Positions 11,701 to 29,700 of a stretch of 64,000 nucleotides of DNA are shown in pieces. This DNA comes from Microcoleus sp. (lineage in GTDB: Bacteria; Cyanobacteriota; Cyanobacteriia; Cyanobacteriales; Microcoleaceae). The stretch lies in NCBI GenBank assembly GCA_042408215.1, contig JAYFMW010000015.1:1-64000 (forward strand). The letters run 5' to 3'. Made by a program: the position numbers. Position 1 is the stretch's first letter. Each line of letters opens with the position of its first letter.

Positions 11701-14700
11701 CCCTCCTCGATGTCATGCAAACCATCCCCATCTTCATCTATCTGGTTCCTGTTGTCATGCTATTTGGCATTGGTAAAGTTCCTGGGGCGATCGCAACTAT
11801 CATCTTTGCACTGCCGCCTCTGATTCGCCTCACCAACCTTGGTATCAGGCAAGTATCTGAAGAGGTGGTGGAAGCGGCGATCGCTTTTGGGTCAACTCCT
11901 TGGCAAGTCCTGTGGGAAGCGCAAATTCCCCTAGCTATGCCAACAATTCTGACTGGGTTAAACCAAACTATCCTGTTTGCATTGGGAATGTCGGTGGTAA
12001 CATCAATGATTGCCGTGCCTGGACTAGGATTGATGGTATTGCAGGGCGTTGGTCGTCTGGATGTGGGACTGGCTGCTGTGGGAGGGTTGTGCATTGTCTT
12101 GCTGGCGATTATGCTCGATCGGATTACTCAGGCTGTGGGGAAAGTCAGCAGTAGAGGTTCTTGGCTGCAACGAGGGGCGATCGGTTTTCTGCTTTCGAGG
12201 TTAAGAGTTAACACTTCGACTACGCTCAGTGACCGGTGAGCGATCGATCTCAACAAACAGGATAAAAAACTTTTTTCCCTACACCCCATTGGTGTCAACT
12301 TAAGCTGAAACCCAGTCACAGATGGCTGTTTGACCATTAAGCCTAGATCCCCCCTAACCCCCCTTAAGAAGGGGGGAACCGGAGCATTCAAAGTCCCCCT
12401 TCTTAAGGGGGATTTAGGGGGATCTAGACTTAACGTAAAACCCAGATTTATCAAGGCTTTCAGGCTGGTTGTTGACACCAATGCCCACACCCTACCCCCT
12501 ACACCCGATTTTCAATACAAATATCAGCAAAAGTTGACTAACCCAATGATAATGAAACAACACATAAAAAAACAGACATTTGCTATAACATTAGCCTTAC
12601 TTGTAGGTTTGATTGCTTGTCAATCAACTCCCGAAAGCGCTACAAAATATTCAGGCAGCCATCAATCAACAGAAGTAGCGTTACCTGGAAAAGGGGTGAA
12701 AGTACGCCCTGGCTCTGGTACTTCAGTAGCCGGACAATTTGTTTCAGAAATCATTCGCATTGGGTTAGAAAAGCAGGGTTACGAAGTCGAAGAACTAAAG
12801 GTACTTAATATAACCGCCCTGTTTCTTGCTCTCGGTAATGACGAAATAGATGTTGCTCCCACTTTAGAAAAGTTGCATACCAACTTCTTTGAAAAAGCTG
12901 GTGGTGAAAAGAAACTGGAAGTTGTTGGGATGTTTTCTTCTAGTGATATTATTCAAGGCTATTCGATTGATAAGAAGACTGCCGATCAATATAAAATTAC
13001 GAATCTTGTGCAACTTAAAGACCCAAAAATTGCCAAATTGTTTGACTCAGACGGAGATGGTAAGGCAAATTTAACGGGTTGCAATCCGGGTTTAGCCTGT
13101 GAGCTGATTATTGATCATCACTTGAAAGTTTACGGATTAGAGAATACCGTCAAACAGGATAAAGGAGAAATGGAAGTTCTCAAGGCAGATATCATTGCTC
13201 GCTATCAGCAAGGAAAACCGATACTCTATAGCAATTGGAATCTTGATTGGTTGACTTCAGTGTTACAAACTGGTGCAGATGTGGTTTGGTTAGAAGTTCC
13301 CTTTACCTCTTTACCAGGAGAAAAGGGAAAAGAAATGACACAAAAAGATACCACGGTAAGCGGGAAGAATCTTGGATTTGCCGTGGATAGAGCGCGTCTT
13401 GTGGCTTCCCGGCAATTTTTGTCGGCTAACCCATCCGCCAAACGTTGGTTTGAACTGGTTCGGGTTCCTTTTGAGGATATTATCACCCAAGAAAAACTTG
13501 CCCGTGAGGGTCAAAATCGCTCAAAAGATATCCGTCGTAATGCTGAAGAGTGGGTGAAAAACCATCAAGCGCTGGTTGATGGTTGGCTAGAAGAAGCCCA
13601 AACTGCTGGAAAAGCTGCTAAATAATTTTAACTCCTCTGATGGACAGAAAGAGGAATTGGTCTAACGGGGCGCTTGTCGCCCCGTAACTGTTGCAGAGTA
13701 TAAATTCGATCAAATTATAGTACAAAAAGATAGGTCAATCATTGTCAATAAGACCTATCTACTAAAAAGGCTCAAAGTCCCGATAATGGCTGGCAAACGC
13801 TCCCAGTAGGACACCCCTAAATTTCAGCAGAAAATTCAAGCTGCTCCATCACACGCACGCGAGGTACGACGTTTTTACAAAAATTTTGCATCTCAGCAAG
13901 CATTGGCCAACCTGACAAAATAAATTCACTAACACCTGCCGATTTATAAAGCATGAGTTCGTTTGCTACTTCATCAAAACTTCCTACCAGCGCCAATGCT
14001 GCTCCTCCACGATAAGGCACGGCCCCACTCCACAGATGGGGGCCGAGCCACTCTGAGTTGGCTTTTTCTGCTAATTCATAAGTAGCCTTATAAGCAACTG
14101 AATCTGACTTCTGAATCATATTGCTCATAAACTCCTTCCACTTGACATCTGAACTTTCTACAAGCCGAAATGCTGCTTCAATAGCCTCTTCACGTGTTTG
14201 ACGCGCAATGACTGACATCCGAAGTCCTGTGCGAATCATCGCTACACCGTTGCTCTGAGCGATCAAATTGTTACTTTCAGCAATTTTTTCTGGCGTATCA
14301 CCGTACCTCAGCCAACATTGTGCATGTTCAGATGCCGTATGATTGGCAATCTTGGAATTACCACTTAGGTATATTTTGGGCTGACGGACTCCCAAACGAA
14401 GCGAGGTAAACTTGGTGCTTAGCTGAGCGTCTTTTAGTTGGTAATACTTTCCTGCATAGTTCAATGAGCTTGTCGCATTCCAAAGACCTGAGCAAATTTC
14501 GAGATACTCGGCTGCTCGCTCGAATCGCTCATCATGCGAAAGCAAGTCCCCATAATACGCTTGCTCAATAGGATAGGAGCCACATATTATGTTGAGGCTG
14601 ATCCGACCATTTAAAAGATGCGAGAGCGTATTGACTTGCTGAACAAAAAGTGTTGGCGACATCAGACCCGGACGATAAGCCAGCATGAATCCTACTCGCT

Positions 14701-26700: not shown

Positions 26701-29700
26701 ATCGTCGTCTACTGTTGTGTCCAACGGTGCGGGTCTTTCGATAGTCATAAAGGTTTGTAGCATCAATTCCGGTGATGCTGCCATAAGTTGGACATAAACA
26801 CCACCTGCCACTTGATAAGGCATAGAGTTGGGATAGTCCCAAATCTCGCCTACTAACTTGGGAATACCCCCAACGGAATTCATCAGGTTACAGGCAAGGT
26901 TAAGGTGTAGCATTTCTTCCAATACCACACTTCTGAATGTCTGATAAGCCTGAGAAGTTTTATCTTTAATAGAATATAGAGCTGTGAGGTAGGGAGGAAT
27001 GGTAAAAAACTCTATGATTAATGCCTTCTGAAGCATCGTCTTTATCGTCTTTACCGTCTCGTCAGGAGAATCGCCGGAAGAAGGGTTTACCTTCTCAATT
27101 CGCGGTTGGCGTTGAGAAAAAATCGCTTGGCGTTTAGAAGTAGTCATTGTATTGTTCCTTTGTGTTGCAAACAGTCAAGATACTCGTTATTAGGCGGGAT
27201 AACTTGGCCCCATAAGCTAGAGCAACCCCTCCCTAAGAATTGCGCCGTCAAAGCGATAACGCTCAACCCTTGACATTAACCGCACTCTTGGCAACGCTGT
27301 CAGCTTTACCATTGATTGATTGGGGGTTAACTTGCGGCACAGAGGAAGGCACGGCTGTTTTGATAAATTCGTAATAAATCGACAAGAACACCTCATCTAG
27401 CGGCACATCGCGCATCATCTGCTTCGCCTTTTCCCGCAGCTTTTCGTGTGCCGAGTTGTCGAGAACTGCCATTTCAAACAGCAGGCGAAGATAGGACTCT
27501 AGTTCGCGGGTACGGTTGTAAGGCAAAAAGCCACCGGGTTCCCGTACTGTTGCCATCAAATCGCGGGCACCCACCTCCAGCAACCGCTGGAACGGATTTT
27601 CATTGCGACGACGTTCAATCATCGGCGAGAACACATTCTCCGTGGGGGGTTGTTTGCCAAGTAGCTCTGCCGTCACAACCTGAGCAACTAACGGAGCCAT
27701 CAGCATCCCATTCCTGTAGGTTCCCGTCGCCACGAACAACCCTGGAAATGCAGTTTTTCCAACTAAAGGAATCCCATCAGCGGGAATGGGACGCAATCCA
27801 TAACGCATTTCTTCGATTCTGGTATTTCGCAGCGCAGTATTGAACTGGCTAGCCCCATCACCAAGAATATAGAGGAGGTCTTGAGGTTGAACTCCCAAAC
27901 TCATTTGGGCAGTCAAGCTCAAAGAATTGGTTGCCCCCCACGTATAAGCGTCCCTCACTGCGAGGAACAACGTGCAATCCGCACGCAAAGGAACGATTGG
28001 GGGTGCGAAGCGTGTGGGGAAAATGGGGAGCATCTGCCAGAATACAACTGGTGCCTTTGCCAAATAACACCGCAGGCAGCTTCAGCTTGGAAAACAGCGT
28101 CTCACCGATAACTTCTGGGACTTTCGCTCCCGCACATACCACCACATGAGGCGTGGAAATGCAACCGTGGTTTTCGGTTTGGATGTTCCATGTGCCTTCA
28201 GTGTCCCCAAAATTGATCGAAACAACTTTATCATCTAAGACTTCCCCTTTGGGGTGTAGTGCGATCGCCACCTCAAGGGCTGATAGTAAGTTGTGAGAAT
28301 CAACTGACCCTTCACCAGGGATAAACAACGCTTGGTAAGCCGGACAGGAATTGTTGGCATCTAAACCGGGAACGTCGTCTGGATCGACCCACTCATGGGG
28401 TTCATTATAGGTTTCTAGTTGGGCTTTCATGCGCTTGAGATTGGCCCGATCGCGATCGCCTGCACTGTTGCCAATAATAAATGTTCCTTGTGTGGTAAAT
28501 ATCTCTTGCCCCGATGCCTCCCTCACGCTAGAGAGCCAATCTGGGTAAATCTTCTGCGCTTTGATCCGAAACTCCAGTTCAAGGCGTTCTTCAAGAGTCT
28601 CCTGGTCGGCAGTAATCTCGCCGTATGCGCCCAACATAGCACCACTAGCCAGCGAGGCTCCATCACTATTCTGCTGCTGGGGATAGATCAGCACAACCTT
28701 CAAACCGGAACGGGCTAGTTCAAAGGCGATGGATTTACCAATAATTCCACCACCAACAACTACGGCATCATATGAATGATGGCTGGTGACGTTGTTCTGT
28801 AAAGTCATTTCTTTTCTGCCAATTCTGTGAAACCTTTCTAGTTACTTAAAATAAAACACTGTTCAATCTTACGGGATTGTTGAAGGCATTTGTCAAAAAT
28901 ACTAATCCTTATTTTCCAATAAATCAAGTAGGAAAAGTAGGAAGATTTATCAGGAGAGCTATAAAACCCATTTGACATCTTTTAGCGATCGCCCACAACG
29001 GTCGAGCGGTCATAACAGTCGATCGGTCATAACGGTCGATCGCCCGCACAAGCTGTTTTTTGAGGTCATTATTATCTGTAGAAGTTTGGCACTCCTGCGG
29101 CGCTCTCTCTAGCTGCGAACTATCTTCATTTACCAGAAAGCCGCGATCGCAAATCAGTGATAATTGCTCGCTATCCCCTGAGTAGGAAGCCTCCACAAAA
29201 TCAGTGGCAACAGGTAACTGATTAGTGGTAGGCGTTAGTGGTGTGTCTATTACTTCTACTAATTCTAAGGTAACAGATAACTGGTCACTAGCCACTGTTT
29301 CACCTGTCCGGGAGAACAGATATTGCTTGAGCACTAAAAACAGATTTTTTTTCCTCACTCTCTCCCCTAATGCTTTTGAAAAAGCCTGCCACAACTGGGA
29401 GCCAATTTCTTTGATGTGAGCGATACTATAGGCACTATCGGCTGCCATCTCGCTATAACCGCGTCCGAGCCATGAGTGACACAGGATTAAGCGCTCAAGA
29501 GAACTCAGTTGCTTAGAGAGCAGACTTTGTTCTACAGTGTCCAGAACTTCGTCAACATTCATGTAGTGACTCCATTTGAGTAGTATGCACACAGCAAGGA
29601 ACGCTCTAGATTCTTAGACCCCAAAACAGGCAGTTAATAAAAGAAGGCTTTTATGCAGATAGCAGAGGGGAGAAGGACAAGGGCTCAATTACTGTCAGCG

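What a model noticed while it worked through the whole genome (the two positions that open the first line are those of the whole stretch)
13817..28808. NRPS-free gene cluster with two SyrB2-type halogenases, an RtxC-like desaturase and an amidinotransferase
One operon on C15 codes two Fe/2OG halogenases with the His-X-Ala motif, a membrane desaturase like dihydrorhizobitoxine desaturase, an arginine:glycine-type amidinotransferase, a beta-methylarginine-type aminotransferase, an acetyltransferase, a luciferase-like monooxygenase and a ThiO-like amino acid oxidase, with no NRPS, PKS or carrier protein. Boldest reading: it makes a small chlorinated, unsaturated guanidino amino acid (an antimetabolite of the rhizobitoxine/vinylglycine kind), with halogenases that act on a free amino acid although they belong to the carrier-dependent SyrB2/CytC3 branch. 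New would be the compound and free-substrate SyrB2-type halogenases.
Evidence so far: Calls 40, 48: g03273-g03285, all on the minus strand; Swiss-Prot best hits RtxC 34%, GATM 63%, MrsB-type transaminase 34%, SyrB2 29-30%. Call 75: g03280 aligns to SyrB2 (2fct, E 2e-31) with lHQAstf on wHQAdtf, i.e. Ala at the place of the carboxylate ligand; next hit CytC3. Call 49: both halogenases carry an 80-aa hydrophobic N-terminal extension, repeated as the 66-aa ORF g03276. Calls 72, 73: of 8 related loci found in 185,579 species genomes, only 2 (Microcoleus sp. S13_C3, Phormidium sp. R1S1) hold the syntenic cluster g03273-80 plus g03284-85 (76-100% identity); there lodA/lodB/ferritin-like (g03281-83) are absent, so these three are an insertion here. 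Call 74: 31 papers hold 3 of the t [...]
(Added by a program. Inside this text positions count along the whole contig: contig position 1 is position 1 of the stretch shown here. "Call 12" and the like, gene names such as g00115 and contig names such as C1 are that model's own, and its searches are not shown. The text may have been shortened before it was handed on; [...] marks where a part breaks off. The agent that wrote the report below was given it as the finding of a first reader that could run no searches.)

Follow-up and report, generated by a model that had tools for sequence, protein, structure and literature searches.

The report
Carrier-free chlorinase cluster for a basic amino acid
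A filamentous cyanobacterium carries an orphan operon that probably chlorinates, oxidises and adds guanidine or amidine groups to a free basic amino acid, using two radical halogenases from a large uncharacterised branch that seems to work without carrier proteins.

Summary
The gene cluster is real: 13 same-strand ORFs at 13817-29592, with no NRPS, PKS or carrier protein.
1. The "RtxC-like desaturase" scores best as a paralogue of GntB, the membrane arginine gamma-hydroxylase. It reaches 261 bits against a cut-off of 380.
2. The "ThiO-like oxidase" is a homologue of Orf1, a glycine-dependent N-formimidoyl synthase, and keeps its catalytic Cys motif. In this window one extra G in a G6 run splits it.
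3. The 66-aa ORF is the stump of a third halogenase that has an internal deletion.
4. lodB, lodA and the ferritin-like gene are not an insertion. Phormidium R1S1 keeps 237 bp of the lodB 3' end, and three environmental DNA runs carry these genes.
5. The N-terminal extension of the halogenases is a conserved helical domain. It occurs in 113 of 122 family members and, at the thresholds searched, essentially only in this family.
SyrB2 and CytC3 are the closest solved relatives. In 16 other loci of the family, 0 of 199 neighbouring ORFs is a carrier, NRPS or PKS; the neighbours are enzymes of amino-acid and amine metabolism. The product and the substrate are unknown. I read this as a new variant of NRPS-independent amino-acid tailoring clusters and a good lead to carrier-independent SyrB2-branch halogenases.

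The parts
12330..13625 (+). OpuAC-type ABC substrate-binding protein, convergent with the cluster. It may be associated with it; this is uncertain.
   Evidence: Pfam PF04069, E 9.3e-32. Positions 12490-13625 lie inside the block that is 99.4% identical to L001 and 97.4% to L002. Identity drops to 90-91% beyond 12288.
13817..14926 (-). Luciferase-like, FMNH2-type monooxygenase, distantly SsuD-like.
   Evidence: PF00296, E 4.4e-44. NCBIfam SsuD models score 179-181 bits against cut-offs of 510-518. Best PDB match is SsuD 1m41, E 6.4e-41.
15004..15978 (-). Two-domain GNAT N-acetyltransferase; likely acetylates the amine of an amino acid.
   Evidence: PF00583, E 1.4e-9, on residues 32-109. The top Atlas cluster carries Hisat_C plus Acetyltransf_1 (score 0.97, 199 shared features; a lead only). 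No PDB sequence match at E <= 0.01.
15969..17099 (-). PLP aminotransferase of the MrsB (arginine / 5-guanidino-2-oxopentanoate) type.
   Evidence: TIGR04544 scores 367.8 bits, above its cut-off of 350. The GntC model scores 193.9 against a cut-off of 415.
17093..17402 (-). Pseudogene: stump of a third halogenase. Codons 1-64 are followed, in another frame, by the equivalent of about residues 328-353.
   Evidence: P0001, P0242. The stump is 92% identical to the Hal2 N-terminus. The 510-bp segment 17092-17601 is absent from L002.
17673..18824 (-). L-arginine:X amidinotransferase (AGAT/GATM type).
   Evidence: Human AGAT 1jdw, E 2.8e-160; SxtG 2.1e-104. The residues aligned to AGAT D170, D254, N300, H303, D305, R322 and C407 are conserved; M302 is Ile.
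18916..19989 (-). Membrane di-iron (FA_desaturase fold) oxidase, a paralogue of the arginine gamma-hydroxylase GntB.
   Evidence: PF00487, E 1.7e-33. NF041365 GntB scores 261 bits, E 1.5e-77, against a cut-off of 380. It is 39-45% identical to proteins that pass the GntB cut-off.
19996..21195 (-). Hal1: Fe(II)/2OG radical halogenase, HQA type, with the N-terminal family domain.
   Evidence: PF05721, E 2.7e-25. TIGR01762 scores 147.1 against a cut-off of 226.3. Alignment A1; tree.
21279..22493 (-). Hal2: Fe(II)/2OG radical halogenase, HQA type, with the N-terminal family domain.
   Evidence: SyrB2 2fct E 1.8e-31, with HQA aligned on HQA. AF2 model mean pLDDT 88.7. Foldseek SyrB2 TM 0.77 normalised to the target.
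22547..23896 (-). LodB-like flavoprotein, the maturase of a CTQ quinoprotein.
   Evidence: NF038171 scores 311.3 bits against a cut-off of 400. Its 3' 222 bp survive in L002.
23889..25796 (-). LodA-like CTQ quinoprotein amine/amino-acid oxidase.
   Evidence: PF17990 E 1.6e-68 and PF18417 E 8.9e-47. NF038172 scores 392.7 against a cut-off of 600.
25882..27147 (-). Ferritin-like (PF12902) protein of unknown role.
   Evidence: PF12902, E 2e-44. The only PDB match is 3hl1, E 9.7e-11.
27263..28808 (-). Orf1-like FAD glycine oxidase / N-formimidoyl (amidine) synthase. Here it is interrupted by one extra G in a G6 run at about 27939.
   Evidence: Intact 514-aa orthologues in L001 and L002 match 7xqa at E 2.6e-59 over residues 13-440. 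Orf1 residues C281, H284, Y294, T298, R342, R368 and E426 are conserved. Frameshift. Runs X2, X3 and X5 lack the extra base.
28924..29592 (-). 222-aa ORF with no family; it may be a regulator fragment. Membership of the cluster is uncertain.
   Evidence: No Pfam or NCBIfam hit. Homologues of 62-72% identity sit next to proteins passing the GntB cut-off in L081 and L101; the L101 homologue carries AAA_35.

Best explanation
This is an orphan, carrier-protein-independent biosynthetic operon that tailors a free basic amino acid (arginine, homoarginine, lysine or ornithine class).

Inferred steps, none shown by chemistry:
1. Two tandem-duplicated Fe(II)/2-oxoglutarate radical halogenases chlorinate unactivated side-chain carbons of the free substrate. 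Their family-specific N-terminal helical domain is part of the enzyme and may take over substrate capture that SyrB2 leaves to a carrier protein.
2. A GntB-type membrane di-iron enzyme hydroxylates or desaturates the side chain.
3. An MrsB-type aminotransferase interconverts the 2-amino and 2-oxo forms.
4. An AGAT-type amidinotransferase builds or moves a guanidino group from arginine onto an amine.
5. An Orf1-type flavoenzyme can add a glycine-derived formimidoyl (amidine) group to an amine.
6. A GNAT acetylates an amine, for protection or self-resistance, and a flavin monooxygenase performs a further oxidation.

The LodA/LodB/ferritin-like trio is an ancestral but dispensable oxidase module. 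The expected product is a small, polar, chlorinated guanidino or amidino amino acid, plausibly an antimetabolite.
For: Family assignments:
- HQA motif, distal His and Arg aligned on SyrB2; best PDB matches SyrB2 and CytC3 by sequence and by fold, with TM 0.76-0.78 normalised to the target.
- GntB model E 1.5e-77; TIGR04544 above its cut-off.
- AGAT catalytic residues conserved.
- Orf1 Cys281 motif and glycine-site residues conserved.
- The GNAT resembles histidine N-acetyltransferase clusters.

Carrier independence:
- No carrier in the 14 cluster proteins.
- The 7 PP-binding matches in the genome lie on contigs C7, C14 and C17, none on C15.
- In 16 other loci of the halogenase family, 199 of 217 ORFs within 6 kb were scanned; the 18 left out are the halogenase matches themselves. 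None of the 199 hit PP-binding, AMP-binding, condensation or ketoacyl-synthase.
- The neighbours are instead AlaDH plus saccharopine dehydrogenase, Asp decarboxylase, Orn/Lys/Arg decarboxylases, TauD/GBBH enzymes, methyltransferases and sulfotransferases.

Substrate hint:
- Hal1 and Hal2 are sisters (SH-aLRT 99), nested in a 14-row clade (SH-aLRT 100) whose other 8 rows come from loci L003-L008. L003, L005 and L007 were Pfam-scanned and carry the lysine-type AlaDH/saccharopine-DH pair; L004, L006 and L008 were not scanned.

Family domain:
- The N-extension is present in 113 of 122 members and modelled at pLDDT of about 88-98.
- Searched alone, it finds only 30 representatives among 1.84 billion proteins.

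Selection and spread:
- dN/dS between the window and L002 is 0.15-0.53 for 6 of 7 genes.
- The core 12490-22530 is 97.4-99.4% identical to L001 and L002, while flanks are 83-93%. Those genomes sit in two different families, which suggests recent horizontal exchange.
- Near-identical contigs occur in 3 DNA runs from 3 studies.
Against: - There is no chemistry, and neither substrate nor product is identified.
- TIGR01762 ('chlorinating enzyme') scores 147-155 bits, below its cut-off of 226.
- HxA is necessary for halogenation but not sufficient.
- Within the family the third motif position varies: A 76, G 8, S 12, T 10, N 7, E 8, D 1. Function is therefore not uniform.
- The cluster shows decay: a halogenase stump, a frameshifted oxidase in this assembly, and lodAB deleted in L001 and L002. 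Metagenome loci L076-78 retain only the oxidase, the GntB-like gene and a halogenase stump.
- AT dN/dS is 1.59, on only 16 substitutions.
- No MrsA-type methyltransferase, no flavin reductase and no exporter was identified.
- KASIII genes beside family members in L031 and L032 leave ACP-linked chemistry possible in some branches.
- A carrier encoded elsewhere cannot be excluded.
Confidence: 0.55

Rival explanations
1. The halogenases are ordinary SyrB2-type enzymes acting on an aminoacyl-S-carrier protein that is encoded elsewhere, for example in the NRPS/PKS loci on contigs C7 or C17. The window cluster would only supply a building block to that assembly line.
For: SyrB2 and CytC3, both carrier-dependent, are the closest solved relatives. 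The genome has 7 PP-binding matches, including large NRPS/PKS frames of 1637 and 3409 aa.
Against: None of the 7 matches is on this contig. 0 of 199 neighbour ORFs in 16 other family loci is a carrier or adenylation enzyme. The family has its own conserved N-terminal domain that SyrB2 lacks. The cluster moves between genomes as a unit without a carrier.
Confidence: 0.08
2. This is a catabolic or salvage island, not a biosynthetic one. The neighbouring OpuA-type ABC system imports a guanidino or quaternary-amine compound. Oxidases (LodA-like, flavoprotein), an aminotransferase, an SsuD-like monooxygenase and 2OG oxygenases acting as hydroxylases then degrade it.
For: Many parts are typical of catabolism: oxidases, a transaminase and an SsuD-like LLM. 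The convergent ABC transporter is conserved, and its binding-protein gene lies inside the high-identity block. TIGR01762 is below its cut-off.
Against: Both PhyH proteins have Ala, not Asp or Glu, at the carboxylate-ligand position. An AGAT-type amidinotransferase and an Orf1-type amidine synthase are group-building enzymes. The distribution is sporadic: the GntB-like gene at 93% identity or more occurs in 2 of 400 other genomes of the order, which fits specialised metabolism.
Confidence: 0.12
3. The region is a composite of two unrelated modules. One is an oxidase module (Orf1-like, ferritin-like, LodA, LodB). The other is the halogenase-to-LLM module. They happen to be adjacent and do not make one product.
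For: lodB-lodA-ferritin are missing in L001 and L002 while the rest is kept. The oxidase segment is 92-93% identical to L001 and L002, against 97-99% for the core, which indicates a recombination break. Contigs from an RNA library (X16) lay only on 22846-27760 and 29317-29600 (weak, since contigs cannot show transcription).
Against: All genes are co-oriented with gaps of 53-115 bp across the junctions. The Orf1-like gene is kept next to the cluster in all three genomes. In metagenome loci L076-78 it sits directly beside the GntB-like gene.
Confidence: 0.3
4. In this particular strain the cluster is decaying and makes no final product.
For: The oxidase is frameshifted, there is a halogenase stump, and relatives show deletions and stumps.
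Against: The frameshift is one base in a G6 homopolymer and may be an assembly error. Three other DNA runs lack it. The other 11 genes are intact. dN/dS is below 0.6 for 6 of 7 genes compared.
Confidence: 0.2

Closest known systems
SyrB2 (syringomycin) and CytC3: carrier-dependent Fe(II)/2OG aliphatic halogenases
   Same: PhyH/cupin fold, the His-X-Ala motif, the distal His and the 2OG-binding Arg. They are the best matches by sequence (E 1.8e-31 and 5e-25) and by fold (TM 0.76-0.78 normalised to the target).
   Different: Identity is only 24-27%. The window proteins carry an extra conserved N-terminal domain of about 85 aa. No carrier protein or adenylation partner lies in the cluster or in 16 other family loci. 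They score below the TIGR01762 cut-off.
Carrier-independent radical halogenases: BesD family (Lys/Orn; recalled), AspX and BtnX (Kipouros & Chang 2026, PMC13489965, section 6 read)
   Same: Proposed action on free polar metabolites, and neighbourhoods of amino-acid-modifying enzymes rather than ACPs.
   Different: The paper places BtnX's subfamily in a CurA-related cluster (25-30% identity to CurA), and AspX comes from another subcluster of the same cluster X. A PDB sequence search with Hal2, even at E <= 10, listed no entry named CurA or BtnX; I did not check that those entries are in the PDB copy. The BesD comparison was not tested here. In that paper's supplement I saw one likely member of the present family, a 396-aa Hyella protein, listed as a predicted halogenase in the SSN cluster that also holds 'chlorinating enzyme' entries. 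It was not characterised.
Guanitoxin pathway GntB/GntC (arginine gamma-hydroxylase plus PLP cyclodehydratase)
   Same: A membrane FA_desaturase-fold enzyme scoring E 1.5e-77 on the GntB model sits in the same operon as a class I/II PLP enzyme that also hits the GntC model.
   Different: Both score below the equivalog cut-offs (261 against 380; 193.9 against 415). Proteins passing the GntB cut-off, with adjacent GntC-like genes, exist in other cyanobacteria (L081, L100, L102-L106). They are only 39-45% identical to the window protein. No other gnt genes were seen here.
Orf1 of BD-12 biosynthesis / N-formimidoyl fortimicin A synthase (PDB 7xqa; PMC10156733, abstract and passages read)
   Same: Similar length (514 against 512 aa) and an FAD glycine-oxidase core with a C-terminal domain. 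The Cys281 'FACGLH' motif, H284, Y294, T298, R342, R368 and E426 are conserved.
   Different: E312 is Gln, E313 is Asp and F316 is Tyr. There is no aminoglycoside or streptothricin context. The acceptor amine is unknown. The window copy is frameshifted.
MrsA/MrsB beta-methylarginine pathway (TIGR04544)
   Same: The aminotransferase scores above the equivalog cut-off.
   Different: No MrsA-type methyltransferase was found among the 14 cluster proteins.
Rhizobitoxine RtxC
   Same: FA_desaturase-fold enzyme in a small-molecule amino-acid pathway.
   Different: Not tested here, because no RtxC sequence or model was available. The curated model that does match is GntB.

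Membership tests
SyrB2/CytC3-type Fe(II)/2OG halogenase | PhyH/cupin double-stranded beta-helix fold | tested here: met
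   PF05721, E 1.8e-25 and 2.7e-25. AF2 model mean pLDDT 88.7; SyrB2 TM 0.77 normalised to the target.
SyrB2/CytC3-type Fe(II)/2OG halogenase | His-X-Ala/Gly in place of the His-X-Asp/Glu facial triad, plus the distal His and the 2OG-binding Arg | tested here: met
   HQA is aligned on SyrB2 HQA. H324 and R341 are aligned and invariant or nearly invariant in the family.
SyrB2/CytC3-type Fe(II)/2OG halogenase | Substrate presented on a phosphopantetheinyl carrier protein encoded with the enzyme | tested here: not met
   No PP-binding domain in the cluster or on the contig. 0 of 199 neighbour ORFs in 16 family loci is a carrier. A carrier encoded elsewhere is not excluded.
SyrB2/CytC3-type Fe(II)/2OG halogenase | Score above the curated TIGR01762 'chlorinating enzyme' cut-off | tested here: not met
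   155.2 and 147.1 bits against a cut-off of 226.3.
SyrB2/CytC3-type Fe(II)/2OG halogenase | Chlorination activity | not testable with these tools
   Needs an enzyme assay.
GntB (L-arginine gamma-hydroxylase) | FA_desaturase-fold membrane protein scoring above the NF041365 cut-off | tested here: not met
   261 bits against 380. Nine other cyanobacterial proteins scored 388-495 on the same model. Five, including L076, L079 and L097-99, scored 217-265 like the window protein.
GntB (L-arginine gamma-hydroxylase) | Adjacent GntC-type PLP cyclodehydratase | tested here: not met
   The cluster's PLP enzyme scores 193.9 against 415 on GntC and passes TIGR04544 instead. It is not adjacent either: the AMT gene and the halogenase stump lie between them.
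AGAT/GATM amidinotransferase | Catalytic Cys-His-Asp and the arginine-binding residues of human AGAT | tested here: met
   The alignment to 1jdw shows D170, D254, N300, H303, D305, R322 and C407 conserved, M302 as Ile and S355 as Gly. The roles of these residues are recalled, not taken from a call.
Orf1-type N-formimidoyl synthase | Catalytic Cys281 (NOS-bridge site), the glycine-site residues H284, Y294, R342 and R368, and E426 | tested here: met
   All are conserved in the intact orthologue in L001. Residue roles are from PMC10156733. The window copy keeps the Cys motif but is frameshifted 12 codons later.
Orf1-type N-formimidoyl synthase | E312, E313 and F316 around the adduct | tested here: inconclusive
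   They are replaced by Gln, Asp and Tyr.
MrsB beta-methylarginine aminotransferase (TIGR04544) | Score above the equivalog cut-off | tested here: met
   367.8 against 350.
MrsB beta-methylarginine aminotransferase (TIGR04544) | Partner SAM methyltransferase MrsA | tested here: not met
   No methyltransferase family among the 14 cluster proteins.
LodA/LodB lysine-epsilon oxidase system | Scores above the NF038172 and NF038171 cut-offs | tested here: not met
   392.7 against 600 and 311.3 against 400. The Pfam LodA_N and LodA_C domains are present.

The most novel reading that the evidence does not exclude
The N-terminally extended proteins form a large, mainly cyanobacterial family of carrier-independent radical halogenases within the SyrB2/CytC3 branch. 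At least 290 proteins were found by the word-index search and 169 loci in species genomes. They would act on free polar amines and amino acids, with the conserved N-terminal helical domain replacing carrier-protein recognition. In this operon two such enzymes, together with guanidine- and amidine-installing enzymes, would make a previously unknown chlorinated guanidino or amidino amino acid with antimetabolite or toxin activity in mat-forming freshwater Microcoleus and Phormidium.
Probability: 0.35. Interest if true: 0.8.

Novelty: new variant of a known kind. Interest (0 to 1): 0.6.

Why it matters
Radical halogenases that accept free substrates are sought as biocatalysts, and few are known. 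The examples are BesD-type enzymes, WelO5, AdaV and, in 2026, AspX and BtnX.

The evidence here points to a whole uncharacterised clade next to SyrB2 and CytC3 that sits in carrier-free, amino-acid-type neighbourhoods and has its own conserved domain. That makes its substrate scope directly testable.

The operon also joins an AGAT-type amidinotransferase and an Orf1-type amidine synthase with a GntB paralogue. I found no report of this enzyme combination in the paper searches run here.

The hosts are benthic mat-forming cyanobacteria. Near-identical copies occur in several freshwater and sediment samples. An unknown small chlorinated guanidino compound there would therefore matter for ecology and water quality.

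Tried and rejected
- The search of earlier findings returned nothing for this genome.
- Atlas search with the N-terminal 88 residues gave only scores of 0.86 or less, so no lead.
- The GNAT had no PDB sequence match.
- The ferritin-like protein had one weak PDB match, 3hl1.
- Literature: three paper searches for the enzyme combination or for carrier-independent SyrB2-type cyanobacterial halogenases found no description of this cluster. A search for 'Peltigera membranacea' plus halogenase plus Nostoc found 0 papers. The library lacks most subscription journals.
- The cyanobacterial BGC survey preprint (10.64898/2026.09.06.749771, passages read) counted only Trp-halogenase, CylC and SxtG types, so it does not cover this family.
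- Supplements of PMC13489965 were searched only for a few organism names and one accession. The accession M4T9P8 was not found. I did not establish which of their clusters holds the family beyond one 396-aa Hyella row.
- Expression: the RNA-library contigs of X16 did not cover 13800-22758. This is no evidence of silence.
- The contig joints 17385>21184 (X3, X5) and 20107>21394 (X3) lie in the thrice-repeated halogenase 5' region. I take them as assembly ambiguity, not as a finding.
- The careful tree search did not finish in 300 s, so only the quick tree is reported.
- I rejected the idea that the 66-aa ORF is a scaffold or carrier peptide, because it continues out of frame into halogenase C-terminal sequence.
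- I rejected a membrane-anchor reading of the N-extension as the main explanation. It is modelled at high confidence as part of the globular enzyme and is conserved in family contexts that lack membrane enzymes. This is not excluded.

Full report
**What is there**

Between 13817 and 29592 the minus strand carries 13 consecutive ORFs, with gaps of 6-270 bp or short overlaps. Pfam and NCBIfam scans give the following, in transcription order:
- A 222-aa ORF without a family.
- An FAD oxidase split into two ORFs.
- A PF12902 ferritin-like protein.
- A LodA-like quinoprotein (LodA_N E 1.6e-68, LodA_C E 8.9e-47) and a LodB-like flavoprotein.
- Two PhyH-fold proteins of 404 and 399 aa (Hal2 and Hal1).
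- An FA_desaturase-fold membrane protein.
- An amidinotransferase.
- A 66-aa ORF.
- A class I/II aminotransferase.
- A 324-aa GNAT.
- A luciferase-like monooxygenase.

None of the 14 proteins scanned has a PP-binding, adenylation, condensation or ketosynthase domain.

**The halogenases**

- Hal2 aligns to SyrB2 (2fct, E 1.8e-31) with His-Gln-Ala on the SyrB2 His-Gln-Ala. CytC3 is the next match (5e-25).
- An AlphaFold2 model built on a 34-sequence alignment has mean pLDDT 88.7. Foldseek ranks SyrB2 first (TM 0.77 normalised to the target) and CytC3 second.
- A PDB sequence search at E <= 10 listed 14 entries, none named CurA or BtnX. I did not check that those entries are in the PDB copy.
- Both proteins score below the curated TIGR01762 cut-off: 155.2 and 147.1 bits against 226.3.

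Both belong to a family with a conserved N-terminal extension of about 85 residues:
- The word-index search found 290 proteins at E <= 1e-5, of which 120 were listed.
- In an alignment of those 120 plus the two window proteins, 113 of 122 have the extension. L42, P43, W46 and M50 are nearly invariant.
- The motif reads HQ followed by A in 76 sequences, G in 8, S in 12, T in 10, N in 7, E in 8 and D in 1.
- In the model the extension is helical (helices 12-26, 28-33, 36-39 and 48-56), with pLDDT of about 88-98.
- Searched alone against 1.84 billion representatives it finds only 30 proteins at E <= 0.001. These are about 400-aa family members, short fragments and two long repeat-like hits.
- It therefore looks like a domain private to this family, not a generic hydrophobic tail.

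**The 66-aa ORF**

It repeats Hal residues 1-64. The DNA then continues in another frame into the equivalent of about Hal residues 328-353 and runs up to the aminotransferase start. This is the stump of a third halogenase with an internal deletion. The 510-bp segment 17092-17601 is missing in Phormidium R1S1.

A quick IQ-TREE tree was built from 53 halogenase ORFs. It used only ORFs aligning over at least 300 aa from loci L001-L046; L047-L075 were left out. The careful search did not finish. The tree makes Hal1 and Hal2 sister groups (SH-aLRT 99). They are nested in a 14-row clade (SH-aLRT 100) whose other 8 rows come from loci L003-L008. So the pair is a lineage-specific tandem duplication.

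**Carrier independence**

- The genome has 7 PP-binding matches, on contigs C7, C14 and C17. None is on the window's contig C15.
- An alignment-based scan of 185,579 species genomes found 169 relatives of the halogenase, of which 75 loci were kept.
- Only L001 (Microcoleus S13_C3) and L002 (Phormidium R1S1) share the rest of the cluster.
- For 16 other loci I listed every non-overlapping ORF within 6 kb: 193 of at least 90 aa and 24 of 60-89 aa. I scanned 199 of these 217; the 18 omitted are the halogenase matches themselves.
- None of the 199 hit a carrier, adenylation, condensation or ketosynthase family, at E <= 1e-5 or <= 1e-6.

The neighbours form four recurring contexts:
- Alanine-dehydrogenase-type plus saccharopine-dehydrogenase-type enzymes, with a cupin, a TPP enzyme and a second halogenase (L003, L005, L007).
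- Aspartate decarboxylase, asparagine synthase, GBBH-type TauD enzymes and methyltransferases (L010, L021).
- DUF3326 plus Orn/Lys/Arg decarboxylase-like enzymes (L017, L019, L037).
- KASIII, desaturase, sulfotransferase and SDR (L031, L032, and in part L023).

The last context could still use the housekeeping ACP. Overall the family looks carrier-independent and aimed at polar amines. The closest relatives of Hal1 and Hal2 sit beside lysine-type enzymes.

**The other enzymes**

*GntB-like protein.* The desaturase-fold protein hits the NCBIfam GntB model (guanitoxin L-arginine gamma-hydroxylase) at E 1.5e-77, with 261 bits against a cut-off of 380. In 400 other genomes of the order, 14 had a match at E <= 1e-40. 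Of 14 homologues scored from those genomes and from metagenomes:
- Nine pass the cut-off (388-495 bits). Seven of these nine have an adjacent GntC-like gene: L081, L100 and L102-L106.
- Five score 217-265 bits like the window protein and have other neighbours, such as a sulfotransferase, an APS kinase or argininosuccinate synthase.
The window protein is 39-45% identical to the proteins that pass the cut-off. It is a GntB paralogue, not GntB. RtxC itself could not be tested.

*Aminotransferase.* It passes the TIGR04544 (MrsB) cut-off, but no MrsA-type methyltransferase is present.

*Amidinotransferase.* It matches human AGAT at E 2.8e-160. The residues aligned to D170, D254, N300, H303, D305, R322 and C407 are kept, and M302 is Ile. 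The residue roles are recalled.

*GNAT.* It resembles two-domain histidine N-acetyltransferase-like clusters. This is an Atlas lead only.

*LLM.* It is distantly SsuD-like.

**The oxidase**

- The two ORFs 27263-28063 and 27858-28808 are one gene. Relative to L001 and L002 the window has one extra base at about 27939, inside a run of six G.
- The intact 514-aa orthologue matches Orf1, the N-formimidoyl fortimicin A synthase (7xqa), at E 2.6e-59 over residues 13-440. Glycine oxidases score 3e-27 or weaker.
- The paper on Orf1 (PMC10156733; abstract and passages read) names C281 in the peptide AFACGLHLVPR as the site of the glycine-imine adduct. It names H284, Y294, R342 and R368 in the glycine site, and T298, E312, E313, F316 and E426 around the adduct.
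- In the alignment C281, H284, Y294, T298, R342, R368 and E426 are conserved. E312, E313 and F316 are Gln, Asp and Tyr.
- The enzyme is therefore more likely an amidine-forming transferase than a plain amino-acid oxidase.
- It is rare: 3 of 400 other genomes of the order have a match at E <= 1e-60, and two of those are the same cluster.
- Contigs of three DNA runs from three studies (X2, X3, X5) lack the extra base. The frameshift is thus either strain-specific or an assembly error.

**History of the locus**

- L001 aligns to 12490-22530 at 99.4% and L002 at 97.4-97.6%.
- The oxidase segment is 92-93% identical. Outer flanks are 83-93% and, in L002, rearranged.
- The two relatives belong to different families. 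The core has therefore probably been exchanged recently.
- L002 retains 237 bp (97.9% identical) that match 22532-22768. This covers the last 222 bp of lodB, joined directly to the end of the oxidase gene.
- Contigs of X2, X3 and X5 cover lodB-lodA-ferritin with 0-2 differences per listed piece in X2 and X3. One 6681-bp X5 contig bridges 22376-29056, with 153 differences.
- The three genes are thus ancestral and were lost in L002, and probably in L001. They were not inserted here.
- Metagenome loci L076-78 keep only the oxidase (87% identity), the GntB-like gene (79%) and a halogenase stump, next to a transposase.
- dN/dS between the window and L002 is 0.15-0.53 for six genes. It is 1.59 for the aminotransferase, on 16 substitutions.

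**Reading**

What is shown:
- The family assignments and motif conservation.
- The absence of carriers locally and in 16 family loci.
- The pseudogene and the frameshift.
- The deletion history.
- The sporadic, exchanged distribution.

What is inferred:
- The halogenases chlorinate a free basic amino acid.
- The GntB paralogue oxidises its side chain.
- The aminotransferase shuttles between the amino and oxo forms.
- The amidinotransferase and the Orf1-like enzyme install guanidino and amidino groups.
- The GNAT protects or detoxifies.

The order of steps, the substrate (Arg, homoarginine, Lys or Orn) and the product are unknown.

**Novelty**

Carrier-independent halogenases of this fold are no longer without precedent: AspX and BtnX were reported in PMC13489965 (section 6 read). 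The paper describes BtnX's subfamily as related to CurA, and AspX comes from another subcluster of the same cluster X.

I saw one probable member of the present family, a 396-aa Hyella protein, only as an uncharacterised node in that paper's supplement. Paper searches found no description of this cluster or of the N-extended family. The library omits most subscription journals.

Noticed in passing
L081, L100, L102-L106 (other cyanobacteria of the order): Proteins passing the GntB cut-off (388-495 bits) sit directly beside GntC-like PLP enzymes (349-421 bits; only L106 passes the 415 cut-off). This looks like a widespread two-gene cassette of the enduracididine type, outside known guanitoxin producers. 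The rest of the gnt cluster was not looked for.
   Followed up: partly
window 28924-29592 and 30107-33766; L081 2260-2820; L101 8506-9369: Homologues of the family-less 222-aa ORF (62-72% identity) lie next to GntB genes in two other loci. The L101 copy carries an AAA_35 domain, like the 1219-aa AAA_35 plus WD40 protein just upstream in the window. The ORF may be a fragment or relative of a STAND-type regulator linked to GntB-family loci.
   Followed up: partly
L031, L032, L023 (halogenase-family loci): Family halogenases sit beside KASIII, fatty-acid desaturases, SDRs, sulfotransferases and an FMO. The gene set suggests chlorinated, sulfated lipids.
   Followed up: no
L010 (Ca. Paraprochloron terpiosi) and L021 (Hormoscilla), sponge-associated cyanobacteria: A family halogenase is flanked by aspartate decarboxylase, asparagine synthase, two GBBH-type TauD oxygenases and a double methyltransferase. 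This suggests a chlorinated beta-alanine or betaine-type metabolite.
   Followed up: no
window 9820-13625: An OpuA-type ABC transporter (ATPase with CBS domains, permease, OpuAC binding protein) lies convergent to the cluster. Identity to L001 and L002 falls from 97-99% to 90-91% at about 12490/12288, inside the binding-protein gene. About 200 bp (12289-12489) align to neither relative.
   Followed up: partly
window 17385/21184 and 20107/21394: Environmental contigs (X3, X5) join these points, which lie in the halogenase 5' sequence that occurs three times in the cluster. This is either assembly ambiguity or real copy-number variants of the halogenase array.
   Followed up: no
L077 7113-10022: A KS-AT polyketide synthase fragment and a sulfotransferase lie 2-3.5 kb from the decayed oxidase/GntB-like/halogenase-stump locus, on the opposite strand.
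   Followed up: no
L011 12263-16517: Another family locus pairs two halogenases with a 489-aa DAO-family oxidase that is 39-40% identical to the window's Orf1-like enzyme, plus an EamA exporter. The halogenase-oxidase pairing therefore recurs outside this cluster.
   Followed up: no
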